NCBI RefSeq assembly: GCF_004010195.1
Contig: NC_057739.1
Coordinates: forward strand, 19,146,153 to 19,210,152
Length of the DNA stretch: 64,000 nt
Source of the DNA: Chiloscyllium plagiosum
Taxonomy: Eukaryota
Reading direction: 5' to 3'
This document shows positions 15,896-50,569 of the stretch, one piece after another; position 1 is the first letter of the stretch; each line of letters begins with the position of its first letter. The notes under the pieces were generated by a model. It ran no database searches and was not told the origin of the DNA. It saw only the letters and a list, made by a program, of their open reading frames with translations. The position numbers and the translations under genes are program-made.

Positions 15896-16170
15896 TCATT
15901 AAGTGTTACAACAATATTACTTGAAGTCTTACACCTTATTATTATTACAGTTATCTGTTTTTGCAATTTTGCACTTTTTGCATGATCAGAGCTAAACTTC
16001 AAGAATTGTACAAAAAATATTTAAATCACTGAAACTAGATGTAGCAACTTTAGAAAGTGTAGTCTCCTCAGCAGGTGGAAAGCTATGTATTATCGAATGT
16101 AAACCTTGTCCTTATTGTATCATTTTGGTTTATTCTGGCTACTTGCTTTGGGGCCTTTCATCACCTGGTT
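15896..16170 (+). repeat. Inverted repeat, left arm (275 bp)
   Basis: Reverse complement of 17133-17407 with 5 substitutions counted by eye. Confidence 0.97.
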
Positions 16171-17132: not shown

Positions 17133-17407
17133 AACCAGGTGATGAAAGGCCCCAAAGCAAGTAGCCAGAATAAACCAAAATGATACAATAAGGACAGGGT
17201 TTACATTCGATAATGCATAGCTTTCCACCTGCTGAGGAGACTACACTTTCTAAAGTTGCTACATCTAGTTTCAGAGATTTAAATATTTTTTGTACAATTC
17301 TTGAAGTTTAGCTCTGATCATGCAAAAAGTGCAAAATTGCAAAAACAGACAACTGTAATAATAATAAGGTATAAGACTTCAAGTAATATTGTTGTAACAC
17401 TTAATGA
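17133..17407 (-). repeat. Inverted repeat, right arm (275 bp)
   Basis: Reverse complement of 15896-16170. Confidence 0.97.
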
Positions 17408-20310: not shown

Positions 20311-22756
20311 ATAACGTACTTCAGCTCCTGTGGTATCCTGCTTTCTCTAAAGGATGTGAGGCTCCCTCTCCAAAGATACCACAGTGCAGACATAGAAAGG
20401 CAGGCAATTGGGAATTATGACCCCTTCCATGGTCCACTCCCTGGATCTGTTGATGGTCATTTCAACCAGAAACATGCCTATAAGGAGGTCCTCCAAACCG
20501 CTTGCAGCAGGTAAAGAACCCGTCTCTTTATAAATAAACCACCACCAAATTAACAAAACAACCAATGCATCAAATACAGCACTGCCCATGGGGGTCAGCA
20601 AGATCCCAGTTCCCATTTTTCTTTGTAAGCTCACTACCAAATTAATGAATTATCTCAAAGAGAAATAACAAAGTACAAACACTGCCCATCAGGGGCAGTG
20701 TAACAATAACAAAAACCAGAAAGGTGGGGAAACAAGAGAAGGAACTAAATCAAAATGGAGTAGTTCAGGGAAGTAACAGACCCCAGCCTCTGTGGCAGGT
20801 TATGAACCCACCATCTAAACACCAAATTGAACAAATAACTAACACTGCTCACCAGGGGAGCTATAACAATAATAAACAGCTAAAAGATGTGGAAACGAGG
20901 GAGGGGGAGATAATGCACTCTGACTCACACTGTATTCATCTCACTCAAATACCTTTGAGGCACTAGCAGGTATACCATACATCCCTCTCCAAGGTCACCT
21001 GAGCATGAATGTATCTGTGGAAGAGGGAGAGGCAGTCAGGAATTACAACACTCGACACAGTCCACTGCCTCAACTTATGGATGGCATTTTAGCCAGGTCC
21101 AGGAGCAGACCCATGTTGAGGTCCTCCACCCCTGCACTGGTTGACCAAAGAGCAGGAGCAGGCGGCTGAAGTGTAACCAAAAGATCTATAAGAGGCTTTA
21201 TTGTTAAAACTACAAACAGAGGGAGCGATCTCTTACAACCTACATAAATATGGTCCATGGTCTCCACAGCACTGCAGAATAAACAGTTGGCCTGGAATTC
21301 AGTGAAACACCTTAGTCTATACAGTCTGTTCTGATGCAACACGATAAAACTACTTGAAAATGTATCTTACTCTTGTATATTGATGAATTATTCATTGCTT
21401 CAAGTTTGACTGACTGCATTCCAGATCACAGGCAGGTAACTCAAATATCTTTCTAAAAATTTAGGGTCCAGGTCATAAACACCTTGAAGCAAATTCATAA
21501 CAAAATCATCTAAAAGAATGTACAGTGTACTCTGTCTTCAATTGCAGATGGGGGCTAAGGGTCAGTTTGAATGCTATGAGTCTCGACAAGCACCCTGCAG
21601 CCTTTGTACATGGATCTCCATGGTTCAAACCATTACCATTGTTGAAGGCCACTCAACAATTGAAAATATTTTCCCTCAATCTTATTCATACACCACCCTT
21701 GCATCTAGAAAATTTGAGAGATCAAGTTCTCTGCAAAAGAGGCAAAATGCTATTGTAAAACAAAAGGTGAATAAGAACAAATCATTGCTGCTTTTTCTTC
21801 AATGTCAATGAGTGACTGCTGATAGTAGCTAATTTAAGATTATATACAGAATATTCTTTATCCCTTTGTCCAGCCAGTCAGTTAAAATTACTTTTCAGCA
21901 ATGTGTTCATGCTCTGGGGGAAGGATAAAATTCCTGCATCCATTTATGAGGAGATGAGGAATGGTGGCTGGGGAAACTAATTTGGGGAATTTTTCACCCT
22001 TGTTTAAGTCATCAAATCAACAAGCTCCGCAAGTAAACTTATAAGCATGTTTCCATTTCCAAAGGCTCAAATTGCTTGATTTCAAAAAATTGCAGTTTAA
22101 CTTTAAGTAAGATATATTCAGCTCTCAATGTGATAATCATGGCACTTAGTTACAGAAAAAAGGAATGAATTAGTTTCAATTCCCATAACAAAAAATGTCT
22201 TCCCTTTTGTTATGTATATTGCAATTTTAAAGTCCAATGAACAAATTTGTTCTTTTTCAGTAATGTTTAAGCTTCTGGCCATGCAAGATGGTCACATGTT
22301 TATTTGAGGGAGATACATTAACTACAATGGCAAGCTCTCAAATATCTTACATTTGCTTCCTTATTTCATAAACTGATTTTACACAAACCGTGCACAGAAC
22401 ATATGTTTGATCCAGAATAAGTAAATAAATTGATGTTGTTATAAAGATCATCTTATGCAGTAATTCTTGTTTCTCCAAGGGACAGCTTCCCACACAATTT
22501 CTTTTTTAATTACATTGTCAGAGTACATTTATATTTTATGAAACTATTATACATATAGTGTATGTTCATATATAACGTAAGAACCTATTATACTCAAAAG
22601 ATGTACATTGTCATACATTCTAGGAAGCCATTGTATGATAAGAGATATGTTTGTATATACTTTATCAAGTCATATTTTAAATGTATACTCTCACTCACAG
22701 TTTATGATGTAACATTACTTCCTCACTCCACTATGCCCTGTGGATGGAATGCATTG

Positions 22757-22937
22757 CTGAAAAATGTGTTGTTGGAAAAGCGCAGCAGGTCAGGCAGCAT
22801 CAAAGGAGCAGGAGAATCAACGTTTCGGGCATAAGCCCTTCTTCAGGAATGCTTTGATGCTGCCTGACCTGCTGCGCTTTTCCAGCAACACATTTTTCAG
22901 CTCTGATCTCCAGCATCTGCAGTCCTCACTTTCTCCC
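22757..22937. mobile_element. Short Penelope-like insertion (inverted terminal pieces) with 14-bp TSD
   Basis: 50-bp inverted arms at 22756-22805 and 22852-22901; GGATGGAATGCATT at 22742-22755 and 22938-22951; sequence matches the PLE 3' end at 32020-32148. Confidence 0.9.
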
Positions 22938-24375
22938 GGATGGAATGCATTACCAATTTGGACTGTTTCTCCTGGGAGCAATGCAGGTTGGGAGTGATGG
23001 GTGATAAAACAAGGTAACCAGTCTGCTGCAGTTTTTCAGCTTTGAACTATTAATAGAAATCATAATCTGTCATAGTTGGGTTGGTTGATCCTCAGGACTG
23101 GAGTAAGAAATTGACACATTGAGGGGCAGTTTGTGTTAAGTGAGCCTCTGAGAACAGGCAGGCAAAGTCTTTGATATCTCATGTTCTACACCCCCAACAG
23201 TGCTGTGTGGAACCACCCTCTACAAAAAAGGAGAATTATGCCTTCTTATAGGTAGTAAGTGGAGTCAAATTAGGTGGACTTTTCTAAGGTCCATAAGCAA
23301 AACAAACAATGTGCTGTGTCTCCATTATGATCAGAATGGGATCACAAAGTAATTCAAATTCATAATAATCTTCCAAGATTGGAAAATCTGGACCATGCTT
23401 CAGTCCAAAGAACCTTACAGCAGTTATATGACAGGGAGAGATAAATTAAGTGGATTATGTGGATCAATGGATGTATGCAATTTGGATTTCAAACTGGCCT
23501 TCATATATTCGCTGCAGATTGTGTGTTCAGGTTTGATGTCATGCTATTTGTCATTCCTTTTCTCTTAATGTCAACCGAGGTGTCATTCCCAAGAAGGATT
23601 TGTATTTCATCCTCGGGTAATAGGAGAGAAAACAGCATACAGGGTGGCAATATACCTACAACAAATGACTGAGAACTGAGGACTGCAAACAATCAAGGAT
23701 TCAAGAGACGATAGTTCATTTGGAGACAGCATGAGTAGATATATTGGGCAGGAGTAAAATTTATTTCTGACTCACCATTGGCCACTTGTAAAGATGAATG
23801 ATGGGTATGAAGGAAAAGGGGTCGAATTGGGATTCCATAGATCATGGAACCATAGAATGCAATTTCTCAGATTACTGAATAGCCAGGCTCATGACCTTAC
23901 CAGACACGAACCTTTGATCCATGTTTATTAATGAGGTAGTTAGGTTGTTTGCAACCGGCAACAGATAATCAAAACATAGGATACGTTCTGGTCAATCATT
24001 CATACCTGGAGTCAGTAGATACCGATGTTCACTTTGATGCTGGTCATTGAGGTTCTAGAAACTGCACAAATTAGGCCTGGAGACCAGAATATTTTTGTGA
24101 TGCATTGTGAATATGGGGTGTAAATATTGGATGGCACATCATCTCCCAAACGTGTCATGAAGGACAACTCTCACGTGTCGTGAGGAATGCTATTTGAATG
24201 GCCCAGATATTAATTACAGAGTGCTTTGTCCACTTTACATCATTCTCCCCTCCCTGACTGTGTATCCTCCATTCCATGATCCACTGCAGTTCTTAATGTG
24301 ATTGCATAGGATGCTCTCATTATTTGATGTTGCACTACGTGATAGGACTGACATACTGCCTGTCCAACTACAATG

Positions 24376-25618: not shown

Positions 25619-28105
25619 GTCATAGAGTCATAGAGATGCACAGCATTAAAACAAACCCTTCGGTCCAACCCGTCCATGCCGACCAGATACCCTAACCCAA
25701 TCTAGTCTGACATGCCAGCACCCGACCCATATCCCTCCAAACCCTTCCTATTCATTTGCCCATCCAAATGCCTCTTAAATGTTGCAATTGTACCAGCCTC
25801 CATCACATCCTCTGGGAGATCATTCCATACACGTACCACCCTCTGCGTGAAAAGGTTGCCCCTTAGGTCTCTTTTATATCTTTCCCCTCTCACCATAAAC
25901 CTATGCCCTCTAGTTCTGGACTCCCCAACCCCAGGGAAAAGACTTTGCCTATGTACCTTATCCATGCCCTTCATGATTTTATAAACCTCTATAAGGTCAC
26001 CCCCTCAGCCTCCGACGCTCCAGGGAAAACAGCCCCAGCCTGTTCAGCCTCTCCCTATAGCTCAAATCCTCCAACCCTGGCAACATCCTTGTAAATCTTT
26101 TCTGAACCCTTTCATGTTCCACAACATCTTTCCGATAGGAAGGAGACCAGAATTGCATGCAATATTCCAAAAGTGGCCTAACCAATGTCCTACACAGCCC
26201 CAACTCCTGTACTCAACACTCTGACCAATAAAGGAAAGCATACCAAATGCCTGCTTCACTATCCTATCTACCTGCGACTCCACTTTCAATACTAACTTTA
26301 CCTCTTATGCTCGCATCCAAATCATTTATGTAAATGACAAAAAGTAGAGGACCTAGCACCAATCCTTGTGGCACTTCACTGGTCACAGGCCTCCAGTCTG
26401 AAAAACAACCCTCCACCACCACCCTCTGTCTTCTACCTTTGAGCCAGTTCTGTATCCAAATGGCTAGTTCTCTCTGTATTCCGTGAGATCTAACCTTGCT
26501 AATCAGTCTCCCATGGGGAATCTTGTTGAACGCCTTACTGAAGTCCATATAGATCACATCTACTGCTCTGCCCTCACCAATCCTCTTTGTTACTTCCTCA
26601 AAAAAACTCAATCAAGTTTGTGAGACATGATTTCCCACGCACAAAGCCATGTTGACTATCCCTAAACAGTGCTGGAAATGTGTTGCTGGAAAAGCGCAGC
26701 AGGTCAGGCAGCATCCATGGAACAGGAGAATCGACATTTCGGGCATAAGCCCTTCTTCAGGAATTCTCATAAACCTTCTCTGCACCATCTCCAAAGCATC
26801 CACATCCTTTTGGTAGTGTAGCGACCAGAAGGTATCCTATGTTTTGATTGTCTGTTTCCGGTTGCAAACAACCTAACTACCTCTAACTACTTATGCCCGA
26901 AACGTCGATTCTCCTGTTCCCTGGATGCTGCCTGAACTGCTGCGCTTTTCCAGCAACACATTTCCAGCTCTGATCTCCAGCATCTGCAGACCTCACTTTA
27001 TCCCTAAACAGTCCTTGCCTTTCCAAATACATGTACATCCTGTCCGTCAGGATTCCCTCCAACAACTTGCCCACCACCAACAGGTCTATAGTTTCCTGGC
27101 TTGTCCTTACCACCCTTCTTAAACAGTGGCACCACGTTAGCCAACCTCCAGTCTTCCGGCACCTCACCTCTGACTATCAATGATACAAATATCTCAGCAA
27201 GAAGCCCAGAAATCACTTCTCTAGCTTCTCACAGAGTTCTCGGGTACACCTGATCAGGTCCCGGGGATTTGTCCACCTTTACCTGTTTCAAGACATCCAG
27301 CACATCCTCTTCTGTAAAATGAACATTTTGCAAGATATCACCATCTATTTCCCTGCAGTCTATATCTTTCATATCCTTTTCCACACTAAATACTGATGCA
27401 AGAAATTCATTTAGTATCTCCCCCATTTTCTGCGGCTCCACACAAAGGCCGCCTTGCTGATCTTTGAGGGGCCCTATTCTCTCCCTAGTTAACCTTTTGT
27501 CCTTAATGTATTTGTAAAAACTCTTTGGGTTCTCCTTAATTCTATTTGCCAAAGTTATTTCATATCCCCTTTTTTCCCTCCTGATTTCCCTTTTAAGTAT
27601 ACTCCTACTGCCTTTATACTCTTCTAAGGATTCACTCGATCTATCCTGTCTCTACCTGATATATGCTTCCTTCTTTTTCTAAACCAAACCTTCAATTTCT
27701 TTCGTCGTCCAGCATTCCCTATACCTACCAGCCTTTCCTTTCACTCTGACACGAATATACTTTTTCTGGACTCTCGTTATCTCGTTTCTGAAGACTTCCC
27801 ATTTTCTAGCTGTCCCTTTACCTGCGAACATCTGCCCCCAATCAGCTTTTGAAAGTTCTTGCCTAATACCATAAAAATTGGCTTTTCTCCGATTTAGAAC
27901 TTCAACTTTTAGATCTGGTCTATTCTTTTCCATCATTATTTTAAATCTAATAGAATTATGGTTGCTGGTCCCAAAGTGCTCCCCCACTGACACTTCAGTC
28001 ACCTGCCCTGCCTTATTTCCCAAGAGTAGGTCAAGTTTTGCACCTTCTCCAGTAGGTACATCCACATACTGAATCAGAAAAATGTCTTGAACACACTTAA
28101 CAAAT
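25619..28105 (-). mobile_element. CR1 (HER1-like) LINE, ~2.2 kb, with internal deletion and nested PLE
   Basis: Peptides [61 protein letters not shown]...WNDLP; abrupt jump near 26288. Confidence 0.95.
26671..26998. mobile_element. Composite PLE insertion with 14-bp TSD and captured filler
   Basis: TATCCCTAAACAGT at 26657-26670 and 26999-27012; inverted PLE ends at 26671-26764 and 26890-26998. Confidence 0.9.
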
Positions 28106-30371
28106 GTCCATTGTGGTTTGGTTTTATTATGTGCTTATGAGTGGTTACTGTTAACCCATTGGGTATAACTGACTAAGTAGAGACAAAGAAAATGGAACTG
28201 GAGCATTACAATGTCTGCAGAGTTGCAATAGGCGGTTCCTTTACTTCTAGGGGCCCAAATTAATTGCCATCCACTTCTGAATCTGGTATAAATGAACAGA
28301 CTAGAAAACATTGCACTGAAATATGCCTGAAGATCATCTTCAGAGGTAATGCTCAAGAGTGGTTCCTTCTCCTTTCTTGAAAAAAGTGGAAGGTTTGTCT
28401 TGAAAAATAGAGTCAAGATTCTGGCTTCAGAGAAGCAAAATCCAAATATGTTTTTCTCACACAAGATTTTTGCTACCAGAAATCGAGTCACAATTGTATT
28501 GATTCCATTCTTTTTCAGGCAGGTTAGGTTACAAGATTGAAGAACAGTTTTTTTTTAAGCAAAAAATAATCCCATTTACAATCAAACTGAAAAGGTGTAA
28601 TCACTATCTAAGTATCCAATTCTGCCAATAAGCAACCAAATCTTGAGACAGAATCCTAGTACTAAGTTGCATATAAAAAAGCTGGATTTAATCAGTCTGT
28701 CCATAATAAGATGCTCAGAATTATCTAATATCTGGGACAATAAATATAGCATAAATAATGAATGATGCAGCCTGAATATCTGGACAATATTAGAAAACTG
28801 GGAATTATTTACACAGGTAGAGTCATCAGCCCGTGATGTAGTATTGTACAAACCAAACGTGAAAAGTTAATATCTAGTCAACACAGCAGATATTATTGAC
28901 AGCTGTGTTTGTGCTGGTTATTATCTAGAAAATGAAATGTCTTTTATAGCAGAAACCAGTTTGAGCTCATGCAAAGATTCAAAATAAAAAGTCACTGCTT
29001 ACAATGAGACACATGGATCAAGATTTTCTGAGTAATATTTAACACTAGCAATGAAAAACCAGAACCCAAAATTCTCAGATTGTATTTCCTACTGTAATGA
29101 TGCCATATTGTGTTAACAGCAATAATCAATTCTGGATTGTGCATTTTGTCATCCTATGTAACTACATCCAGATGCTGTTTTAACTTTTCAAATAACATTC
29201 ATAACAAGATTTCACTTCTCTGCATTTTCCCGACATAAGTCTTTTGTGCAATAGTATATTTTTAATGGTAAACCAGCTTCAAAATCCATTATAGTAAACT
29301 TACTATATATCAGTTTACTGAATATCAGTTACCTTACAGCTATTGTTTCTAATAACTGTTGAAAGTCTGCTGGTATTTAAAACTCATCTATTCTTAGAAA
29401 ATTACCTTCTGGCTCCAACATAATCTCCCTGGAATTATACAGAAAAATGGAGCACTCCTGGAGTTATTAGTCACAATGCTTGAATTAAGAACTTGGATTA
29501 CAACTGGTCTCAGCACCCTGATCTTGGAAAGTACGTCAGCCTTTTGATTCCTTTTCCTATATCCAGTGGCTCCTGCTGAAAATGTGGAAGCATTCGCACA
29601 AACAGAATGAGTTCAGCATATACCAGTAAGTTTGGCATCAGTGGTGGGTACGTTGTTGGGAGGGGATTCTGAGAGATAGGATTTACATGCATTTGGAGAG
29701 GCAAGAACTGATTAGGGGTAATCAGTCTGGCTTTGTGCGTGGGAAATTGTGTCTCACAAACTTAATTGAGTTTTTTGAGGACATAACTAAAAAGACTGAT
29801 GAGGGCAGAGTGGCTGACATTGTTTACATGGACTTCAGTAAAGCCTTTGACAAGGTTCCACATGTTAGACTAATGAGTAAAGTTAGATCACATGGGATCA
29901 GGCACAGCTTTCCAATTGGATACAAAATTGTCTTGACAGTAAGAGACAGAGGGTGGTAGTAGAGGGTTGGTTTTCAGACTGGTGACCTGTGACCAGAGGT
30001 GCTCCACAGGGATCAGTGCAGGGTCCACTTTTATTTGTCATTTATATAAACAATTCCGATGGGAATTCAAGAGACATGGTGAGTACTTTTGCAGATGATA
30101 TCAAGTTTGGTGGTATAGTTGACAGTGAAGAAGGTTACAAAGGGATCCTGATCAACTGGGCCAATAAGCTGAGGAGTTGCAGCTGATGTTTAATGGATAA
30201 ATGTAAGATATTGCATTTTGATAAAACAAACAAGGGCAGGACTTATGCAGTTAATAATAGGTCCTGAGTAGTATTGAGAAACAAAGAGACCGAGGGGTTC
30301 AGGTTCATTGTTCTTTGCAAGTTGCGTTACCAGTAGACAGGGTGGTTAAGAAGGCATTTAGCATGCTTGTC

Positions 30372-48946: not shown

Positions 48947-50569
48947 TAAATGAATATTTTGCATCAGTATTTACTGTGGAAAAGGATATGGAAGATATAG
49001 ACTGTAGGGAAATAGATGGTGACATCTTGTAAAATGTCCAGATTACAGAGGAGGAAGTGCTGTATTTCTTGAAATGCATAAAAGTGGATAAATCCCTAGG
49101 ACCTGATCAGGTGTACCCGAGAACTCTGTGGGAAGCTAGAGAAGTGATTGCTGGGCCTCTTGCTGAGATATTTGTATCATCGATAGTCACAGGTGAGGTG
49201 CTGGAAGACTGAAGGTTGGCAAACGTGGTGCCACTGTTTAAAAAGGGCAGTAAAGACGAGCCAGGGAACTATAGACCAGTGAGCCTGGCTCGGTGGTGGG
49301 CAGGTTGTTGGAGGGAATCCTGAGGGACAGGATATACATGTATTTGGAAAGGCAAGGACTGATTCGGGATAGTCAACCTGGCGTTGTGCATGGGAAATCA
49401 TGTCTCACAAACTTCAAAGTTTTTTGAAGAAGTAACAAAGAGGATTGATGAGGGCAGAGTGGTAGATGTGATTTATATGGAGAGAAAATGAGGTCTGCAG
49501 ATGCTGGAGATCAGAGATGGAAATGTGTTGCTGGAAAAGCGCAGCAGGTCAGGCAGCATCCAGGGAACAGGAGAATCGACGTTTTGGGCATAAGCCCTTC
49601 TTCAGGAGATCTCACGGAATACAGAACTAGCCATTTGGATACAGAACTGGCTCAAAGGTAGAAGACAGAGGATGGTGGTGGAGGGTTGTTTTTCAGACTG
49701 GAGGCCTGTGACCAGTGGAGTGCCACAAGGATCGGTGCTGGGCCCTCTACTTTTTGTCATTTACATAAATGATTTGGATGCGAGCATAAGAGGTACAGTT
49801 AGTAAGTTTGCAGATGACACCAAAATTGGAGGCTAGGGCGTGTTGCTGAACAAAGAGACCTTGGAGTGCAGGTTCATAGCTCCTTGAAAGTGGAGTTGCC
49901 GGTAGATAGGATAGTGAAGGAGGTGTTGGTATGCTTTCCTTTATTGGTCAGAGTATTGAGTACAGGGGTTGGAAGGTCATGTTGCAGCTGTACAGGACAT
50001 TGGTTAGGCCACTGTTGAAATATTGCGTGCAATTCTGGTCTCGTTCCTATCAGAAAGATGTTGTGAAACTTGAAAGGGTTCAGAAAAGATTTACAAGGAT
50101 GTTGCCAGGGTTGGAGGATCTGAGCTACAGGGAGAGGCTGAACAGGCTGGGGCTGTTTTCCCTGGAGCGTCGGAGGCTGAGGGTTGACCTTATAGAGGTT
50201 TACAAAATTATGAGGGGCATGGACAGGATAAATAGGCAAAAGTTTTTTCCTGGGGTTGGTGAGTCCAGAACTAGAGGGCATAGATTTAGGGTGAGAGAGG
50301 AAAGATATAAAAGAGACCTAAGGGGCAACTCTTTCACGCAGAGGGTGGTACGTGTATGGAATGAGCTGCCAGAGGATGTGGTGTATGTGCTGGTACAATT
50401 GCAACATTTAAAAAGGCATTTGGATGGGTATATGAATTGGAAGGGTTTGGAGGGATATGGGCCGAGCGCTGGCAGGTGGGACTCGATTGGGTTTGGATAT
50501 CTGGTTGGCCTGGACGGGTTGGACCGAAGGGTCTGTTTCCATGCTGTACATCTCTATGACTCTATGACT
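48947..50569 (+). mobile_element. CR1 (HER1-like) LINE with nested PLE piece and internal deletion
   Basis: RT motifs including [20 protein letters not shown] and FADDTK; ORF 49931-50599 is the ORF2 C-terminus; tail CTCTATGACTCTATGAC. Confidence 0.95.
49481..49606 (-). mobile_element. Short PLE terminal insertion replacing ~55 bp of CR1
   Basis: Antisense of TCCTGAAGAAGGGCTTATGCCC...GCATCTGCAGACCTCA; the host DFSKAFDKVPHGRL segment is missing. Confidence 0.88.

What the first reader, a model, noticed from the sequence alone, without database searches (positions are those of the whole stretch)
26657..27012. Penelope insertion that captured a foreign CR1 piece and an inverted copy of neighbouring genomic DNA
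Seen, between 14-bp TSDs: an inverted PLE end (26671-26764); ~65 bp of a CR1 subfamily differing from the host (26765-26830); 26823-26883, which is the reverse complement of 23933-23993 with 3 mismatches in 61 bp; a TAACTAC stutter; and a forward PLE end. The CR1 piece and the local piece overlap by the microhomology GACCAGAA. Inference: serial template switching during one integration event, using nearby DNA or a nascent local transcript. This would be a PLE-mediated route for shuffling host sequence.
Basis: partly seen in the sequence, partly recalled or inferred. Interest (0 to 1): 0.7.

Follow-up and report, generated by a model that had tools for sequence, protein, structure and literature searches.

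The report
Penelope seam patched from two loci
A small jumping-gene insertion in an intron of a shark-like genome carries, between its two mirror-image halves, a stretch matching an older copy of the same element 2.4 million bases away plus a reversed copy of DNA 2.7 kb away, likely patched in by a loose DNA end that borrowed both places as templates while the insertion was being sealed, a kind of accident already known from other jumping genes.

Summary
The 'inverted Penelope end' and the 'foreign CR1 piece' are one 160-bp block (151/160 identical) matching an older Penelope-in-CR1 junction 2.385 Mb away on the same contig, in MEGF9 intron 1. One other locus has this junction; the block is closer to the near one and shares two minority alleles with it. 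Next come an inverted 61-bp copy of single-copy DNA 2.7 kb to the left (8-9-nt microhomology), a 7-nt stutter and the tailed forward arm, inside a perfect 14-bp duplication in CACNA1B intron 3. Head-to-head arms are the normal form of this family (35 pairs in 1.66 Mb); only this one of 26 gap-free pairs holds unique host DNA. Most likely (0.5) both break ends were primed on Penelope RNA, then the left end copied the donor by homology, folded back on its own resected strand and was end-joined. Switching onto MEGF9 pre-mRNA is the main rival. It resembles templated insertions of L1 and host capture by rotifer Penelopes, and this scan noted similar seams elsewhere in this genome. It moved junk DNA: a well-traced case of modest interest.

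The parts
26657..26670 (+). left target-site duplication (14 bp)
   Evidence: identical to 26999-27012; carries a base private to this host CR1 copy
26671..26764 (-). inverted, tailless Penelope-like arm; first part of the 160-bp donor-matching block
   Evidence: 89 of 94 identical to the donor element; starts where the donor element ends, which is also a common end point of the family
26765..26830 (-). CR1 flank of the donor insertion, including a copy of the donor's own 10-bp duplication (26763-26772)
   Evidence: contiguous with the arm in L014:1406-1565; shares minority alleles at 26787 and 26820 with the donor
26823..26830 (+). microhomology between donor flank and local source (8 nt; probably 9 before a later change at 26831)
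26823..26883 (-). inverted copy of local single-copy DNA 23933-23993
   Evidence: 58 of 61; 2 hits genome-wide
26884..26890 (+). 7-nt repeat of 26874-26880; its last base is shared with the forward arm
26890..26998 (+). forward, tailed Penelope-like arm, starting in the loop of a short hairpin
26999..27012 (+). right target-site duplication
23933..23993 (+). local source of the inverted copy; unique intron DNA 2.68 kb left of the insert
   Evidence: no repeat cover on either side; the only plus-strand site of the 8-mer in the 10 kb left of the insert
25620..28130 (-). host CR1-type LINE copy that received the insertion (ends approximate)

Best explanation
This is one head-to-head Penelope-like insertion whose seam holds a 160-bp block matching an older Penelope-in-CR1 junction 2.385 Mb away and an inverted 61-bp copy of DNA 2.7 kb away, likely copied from DNA by the unjoined left end during integration. 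Shown: the pieces, their sources, the 14-bp duplication and the junctions. Inferred steps: (1) the element's endonuclease made a staggered cut; (2) both 3' ends were extended on Penelope RNA, the right from the tailed start and the left from the tailless start; (3) joining stalled and the left end was resected; (4) its cDNA tail paired by up to about 90 nt of homology with the donor copy on the same chromosome and was extended 66 nt through the donor's junction; (5) it was released and folded back at the 8-9-nt match on its own exposed strand for about 53 nt; (6) it re-primed once (the 7-nt stutter) and was end-joined to the right cDNA through 1 nt; (7) gap filling left no deletion.
For: Donor: contiguous match 151/160. 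Only 2 other loci carry this junction within 3 mismatches of the donor's 28-mer; a fourth hit is not CR1. The block has 9 differences to the near locus and 11 to the C10 locus, and shares 26769 A, 26787 A and 26820 A with the near one. None of 29 other CR1 copies has both 26787 A and 26820 A. A random locus lies within 2.385 Mb with chance 0.13%, and on this 47.6-Mb contig with 1.3% (arithmetic; double for two candidates). Two-ended origin: 35 of 35 arm pairs have one long and one short 3' end; a purified Penelope protein cuts and extends both strands and starts at two internal sites (PMC11167929, main text read). Homology switch: at 26675/26964 both window arms carry the rarer base and the donor does not; other pairs are 13 TT and 1 TC. 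Fold-back: the source is left of the insert and inverted, as a fold-back of the left end requires, at the only plus-strand site of the 8-mer in 10 kb; the host transcript has the wrong polarity for this step. Same age: copy versus sources 5.6% and 4.9% different, arm versus arm 4.8%. Short inserts or 0-1 nt overlaps are common at seams, 15 of 26.
Against: The donor lies in sense in MEGF9 intron 1, as an RNA template requires; the base rate of sense single arms there is high, 10 of 15, so this weighs little. The homology-switch argument rests on one site. About 90 nt is short for strand invasion (recalled). At about 52 young arms per Mb many copies lie nearer than the donor. The junction exists independently on C10, so it looks like a favoured site and the junction alone does not prove the donor. 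Local copies are not enriched beside Penelope 5' ends in this sample: 3 of 187 windows against 18 of 1460 random ones. No empty site and no junction-spanning read was seen. One seam in 26 had an 8-nt overlap without any filler.
Confidence: 0.5

Rival explanations
1. The Penelope reverse transcriptase at the left end moved by homology from element RNA onto unspliced MEGF9 intron-1 RNA still tethered near its gene, copying 66 nt of flank (a 5' transduction); only the local piece was then copied from DNA by fold-back.
For: Donor is sense in MEGF9 intron 1; nearness in cis fits tethered RNA; Penelope elements mobilise intron-containing host sequence in trans (PMC3846280, passages); L1 insertions from two RNAs are described (PMC11702581, section 7).
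Against: Sense orientation is common among single arms in these genes, 10 of 15 and 12 of 19. It needs two different copying systems. The donor lacks all element sequence beyond the tailless start, and the anole protein needed RNA beyond its first start site (PMC11167929), so only a switch, not a start, on donor RNA is plausible.
Confidence: 0.25
2. All RNA, two-ended: the left cDNA ran onto MEGF9 pre-mRNA, the right cDNA jumped with a stutter onto CACNA1B pre-mRNA, and the two cDNAs annealed at the 8-9-nt match.
For: Both templates would be sense RNA of minus-strand genes; realignment stutters suit a telomerase-related enzyme (recalled).
Against: The 8-9-nt match would be chance: about 2-6% for tails of 61 and 66 nt (arithmetic), and 1 of 26 seams shows an overlap that long. 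A search for a priming site over about 3 kb of exposed strand finds one easily.
Confidence: 0.11
3. Two events: an ordinary head-to-head insertion came first; its palindrome later broke at the centre and host repair patched it from the donor and the local DNA, with no role for the element's enzyme in the capture.
For: It gives the same final structure; a 275-bp inverted copy of unique DNA without any Penelope arm exists in this window, so host copying happens on its own.
Against: The filler is no younger than the arms by divergence, although the counts are small (3 of 61, 9 of 160, 4 of 83).
Confidence: 0.1
4. One reading: the enzyme jumped from Penelope RNA to an unrelated CR1 mRNA and made the junction anew.
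For: The junction has 2 nt of microhomology, and the CR1 piece is in the polarity of a cDNA; the site looks favoured.
Against: A locus with the same junction lies 2.385 Mb away and shares two minority alleles with the copy.
Confidence: 0.03
5. Assembly chimera.
For: The assembly is fragmented (101,977 contigs) and no spanning read was seen.
Against: The copy differs from both sources by about 5% and is bounded by a perfect duplication with a private base.
Confidence: 0.01

Closest known systems
Head-to-head insertion unit of endonuclease-bearing Penelope-like elements (PMC3846280, passages; PMC11167929, parts 1-2 of 4 with the whole main text)
   Same: Inverted terminal repeats, a 30-40-nt tail on one arm only, one target-site duplication.
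   Different: The seam holds foreign sequence from two traceable loci. Self-priming on one template, proposed in PMC3846280 for palindromic seams, cannot give this copy.
Host DNA captured between Penelope terminal repeats in Adineta vaga (PMC3846280, passages)
   Same: Non-element DNA inside one duplication, framed by element ends.
   Different: There a whole gene lies between direct repeats; here 127 bp from two loci lie between inverted arms, and one piece is the flank of an older copy.
Templated insertions in somatic L1 integration (10.1101/2024.08.27.596794, passages: 22 cases, under 250 bp, SDSA-like model cited; PMC11702581, section 7 and passages: 3 cases templated near the site, 9 from two RNAs)
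   Same: Short genomic copy built into a retrotransposon insertion; ends extended separately and joined by microhomology.
   Different: Other element class, no poly(A), germline fossil. The local template is 2.7 kb away (the preprint's text says typically within 15 bp; its supplementary figure was not seen) and a second template is 2.4 Mb away.
5' transductions and antisense twin-primed chimeras of LINE-1 (PMC13174262, part 1 of 11 and passages; PMC2912911, passages on twin priming)
   Same: Upstream flank carried in line with an intronic, sense source copy; opposite orientations from two primed ends.
   Different: No splice junction or other RNA mark here, and the donor is a 94-bp dead stub.
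Polymerase-theta templated inserts and microhomology-mediated template switching in break repair (recalled; search listing only)
   Same: Repeated short priming, stutter, 1-nt final joint, fold-back copying.
   Different: Templates here lie kilobases to megabases away, farther than usual for polymerase theta alone (recalled).

Membership tests
Endonuclease-bearing Penelope-like elements (the arms) | One ORF with reverse transcriptase and C-terminal GIY-YIG endonuclease | tested here: inconclusive
   The window copy has no ORF. A longer copy ending in the same terminal sequence matches proteins at 89% and 79% that hit GIY-YIG (E 0.0046, 0.00025) and RVT_1 (E 0.0077), all below Pfam cut-offs; 5 element fragments had no such hit themselves.
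Endonuclease-bearing Penelope-like elements (the arms) | Inverted terminal repeat at the 5' side with a tail on one arm | tested here: met
   Here and in 35 of 35 pairs.
Endonuclease-bearing Penelope-like elements (the arms) | Target-site duplication | tested here: met
   14 bp; family range 12-18 among the 35 pairs.
Endonuclease-bearing Penelope-like elements (the arms) | Hammerhead ribozyme motif in the terminal repeat | tested here: inconclusive
   Core-like motif recognised from memory and a short hairpin folds; Rfam gave no hammerhead match at E up to 10.
Templated insertion during retrotransposon integration | Non-element genomic copy under 250 bp inside one duplication | tested here: met
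Templated insertion during retrotransposon integration | Template immediately beside the site (L1 cases) | tested here: not met
   2.68 kb and 2.385 Mb away.
Templated insertion during retrotransposon integration | Copy made in the same event as the insertion | tested here: inconclusive
   Equal divergence of filler and arms, small counts; no orthologue seen.
5' transduction | Source copy with the same upstream flank, in sense to an outside promoter | tested here: met
   L014 in MEGF9 intron 1, sense.
5' transduction | RNA intermediate | not testable with these tools
   No splice junction or editing mark lies in the 160 bp.
Polymerase-theta end joining | Dependence on POLQ | not testable with these tools
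   Sequence scar only.

The most novel reading that the evidence does not exclude
Penelope cDNA ends transfer by homology onto chromatin-tethered pre-mRNAs or DNA of older copies in the same nuclear neighbourhood, so the roughly 100,000 dead stubs act as handles for in-cis capture of their flanks, and donor-seam pairs record megabase germline contacts. Such seams would also show that the inverted arms are two separately primed cDNAs and not a self-primed hairpin.
Probability: 0.2. Interest if true: 0.6.

Novelty: new variant of a known kind. Interest (0 to 1): 0.32.

Why it matters
How Penelope elements make their head-to-head inverted ends is unsettled: self-priming was proposed from genomes (PMC3846280), while a purified protein extends both strands (PMC11167929). 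A seam interrupted by two foreign templates, one traced to another locus, favours two separately made halves that can stay unjoined long enough to copy other DNA. Fillers with traceable sources make this testable genome-wide: distance, side, orientation and host-gene polarity separate DNA repair from RNA switching. The event itself moved 127 bp of repeat and intron DNA, with no sign of function.

Tried and rejected
Public contigs (4 runs, 2 species labels): swamped by repeat copies and no listed piece spans the junctions. The unique middle has depth 9-20 in all four runs, but contigs of the source locus would also lie there, so this is no confirmation. The empty-site-like joints come from other CR1 copies. 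No RNA holder was listed. Rfam found nothing relevant. Pfam scans of 370 stop-to-stop frames found 1 exon and missed CACNA1B; a rough splice-site scan found it (one search was too strict). A BRINP search placed that gene 7 Mb away. Base skew was negative over the window region but near zero over MEGF9, so it was not used as proof. A pair with 185 bp of another repeat between its arms had no donor junction among 40 scored of 281 and of 208 candidates; it is more likely a later nested insertion. Two single arms without a duplication had no second locus. Three apparent local copies beside arms lay outside the duplications. The C10 locus was rejected as donor and as a sister copy: the donor's CR1 flank is no closer to it (91.6%) than to element-free copies (up to 92.1%). 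My first idea, that the exact start at the donor's end proves a start on donor RNA, was dropped because that end is common in the family. Literature searches for Penelope plus templated or filler capture and for L1 cDNA invasion showed no report of a seam like this in the held library; PMC9977147 (passages) was not relevant; Gilbert et al. 2005 is not held and is known only by citation. Supplements of the two L1 papers were not seen and may hold distant templates.

Full report
Setting. The window is G000:C30:19146153-19210152 of a 3.56-Gb, 101,977-contig genome; the nearest named proteins are from sharks. It lies in intron 3 of a CACNA1B orthologue on the minus strand: exons 1-3 at about C30:19.221-19.229 Mb and exon 4 at 19.007 Mb, named from an exon that best matches the N-type channel alpha-1B. 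The insertion sits in a CR1-type LINE copy.

Observation. The two 14-bp duplications are identical, the 61-mer matches the reverse complement of 23933-23993 at 58 of 61, and the arms are 79 of 83 alike. The 61-mer has two hits in the genome, its source is unique DNA with unique flanks, and the CR1/local junction occurs only here. The rebuilt empty site is an unbroken CR1 matching 35 copies, and a base private to this copy is in both duplications.

What the CR1 piece is. A search with the arm/CR1 junction found one other locus covering both sides among 40 scored of 256 candidates. This locus, L014 (C30:21557717-21557876), matches 26671-26830 at 151 of 160 without gaps. It is a 94-bp tailless Penelope arm inserted in a CR1 with its own 10-bp duplication; with it removed, the CR1 is continuous (41 spanning copies). 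So it is the source side and the window is the copy. It lies 2.385 Mb away, in the 100-kb first intron of MEGF9, in sense. Pattern searches found this junction at one further locus, on C10 (a fourth hit is not CR1). That locus has the same 10-bp duplication and an arm one base shorter, and the donor's CR1 is no closer to it than to element-free copies, so the site looks favoured and the junction alone is not proof. The assignment rests on position (0.13% within this distance, 1.3% on this contig, doubled for two candidates) and alleles: 9 differences against 11, and three bases shared with L014 but not with C10, two of which are rare and never together in 29 other copies that were chosen for likeness to the window. 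The distance depends on the scaffolding of C30.

What is normal for this family. In 1.664 Mb of C30, 92 candidate arm pairs gave 35 with duplications of 12-18 bp; one or two may be chance pairs of older copies. All 35 have one long and one short 3' end. Nine hold assembly gaps and were dropped. Of the 26 left, 11 join with 0-8 nt of overlap, 8 have 1-8 inserted bases, 6 have longer element-derived inserts, and only the window's has unique host DNA. Public contigs show other copies joined directly at the same two points, 26764 to 26890 (25, 9, 11 and 6 contigs). The two arms of a pair share subfamily bases: 22 of 22, 21 of 22, 19 of 26 and 14 of 15 at four sites. At the fourth site both window arms have the rarer base and the donor has the common one. 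This one site suggests that the left arm began on the same RNA as the right arm and moved to the donor by homology. The pair finder missed at least two events, one with copies of both flanks at 98-100% and one with a nested repeat. Against a strong enrichment: 3 of 187 windows 5' of arms had a unique match 0.3-20 kb away (two are this event, one lies outside its duplication) against 18 of 1460 random windows, 4 of which overlap arm events.

Mechanism. Shown: one duplication around three templated segments. From the literature: a purified anole Penelope protein cuts and extends both strands and starts at two internal RNA sites that define the tail (PMC11167929, parts 1-2 of 4). Inferred: both ends were primed; the left end then copied the donor for 66 nt past its junction; it primed at an 8-9-nt match on the plus strand 2.7 kb to its left, the only such site in 10 kb; it stuttered once and was joined through 1 nt. 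Left-side, inverted geometry is what a fold-back on a resected end gives, and CACNA1B RNA has the wrong polarity for that step. Resection makes DNA invasion of the donor the simplest account of the earlier step too (0.5). A switch onto MEGF9 pre-mRNA remains (0.25): the donor is in sense, but so are 10 of 15 single arms in that gene. An all-RNA two-ended route (0.11) needs the long microhomology by chance. A later repair of a broken palindrome (0.10) gives the same structure, but the filler is as diverged as the arms.

Comparison. It works like templated insertions in L1 integration (10.1101/2024.08.27.596794, passages; PMC11702581, section 7 and passages) and like L1 5' transductions and twin-primed chimeras (PMC13174262, part 1 and passages; PMC2912911, passages), but it is not an L1 product. 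Host DNA between Penelope repeats is described in Adineta vaga (PMC3846280, passages). Searches of the held library showed no report of a Penelope seam traced to both a distant older copy and a local fold-back; subscription papers and the supplements of the L1 papers were not seen. Unchecked notes of this scan describe many local and some donor-flank captures at Penelope seams in this genome; I did not test them, and they make this one case of a recurring class.

Verdict. Real, and better explained than first read. It is a well-traced fossil that bears on how Penelope halves are joined. It is a single event that moved non-coding DNA, and the enzyme responsible is not identified. Interest 0.32.

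Noticed in passing
L048:9715-10000 and L049:1-129 (G000:C30 about 19,219,870-19,220,280): Young Penelope arm with a small hairpin, followed by a direct copy of 101 bp of downstream flank (100%) and 59 bp of upstream flank (98%), joined at about 12 nt of microhomology: a second, younger seam patched from local DNA.
   Followed up: partly
L209 (G000:C10 about 13,017,500): Probably independent Penelope insertion at the same CR1 position with the same 10-bp duplication as the donor; suggests a favoured target site.
   Followed up: partly
window 15896-16170 and 17133-17407: 275-bp inverted copy (98%) of otherwise unique DNA about 1 kb apart, with no Penelope arm seen.
   Followed up: partly
window 22755-22937: Ordinary head-to-head Penelope pair with a 14-bp duplication and no filler.
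   Followed up: yes
window 49482-49607: Single tailed Penelope arm in another copy of the host CR1 family, with no duplication found and apparently a short target deletion.
   Followed up: partly
L141:1600-2023: Arm pair with a 14-bp duplication and 185 bp of another repeat between the arms, likely nested later.
   Followed up: partly
L115:6968-9252 (minus strand): Retrovirus-like remnant: envelope (E 8e-8) and integrase (E 7e-5) Pfam hits. Observed only.
   Followed up: no
L065:5780-6050: Penelope arm whose 5' junction holds a short palindrome that matches the flanking DNA.
   Followed up: no
G000:C30 18.85-21.64 Mb: Gene order CACNA1B (-), EHMT-type methyltransferase (-), then MEGF9 (-) about 2 Mb further; introns of 100-214 kb.
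   Followed up: partly
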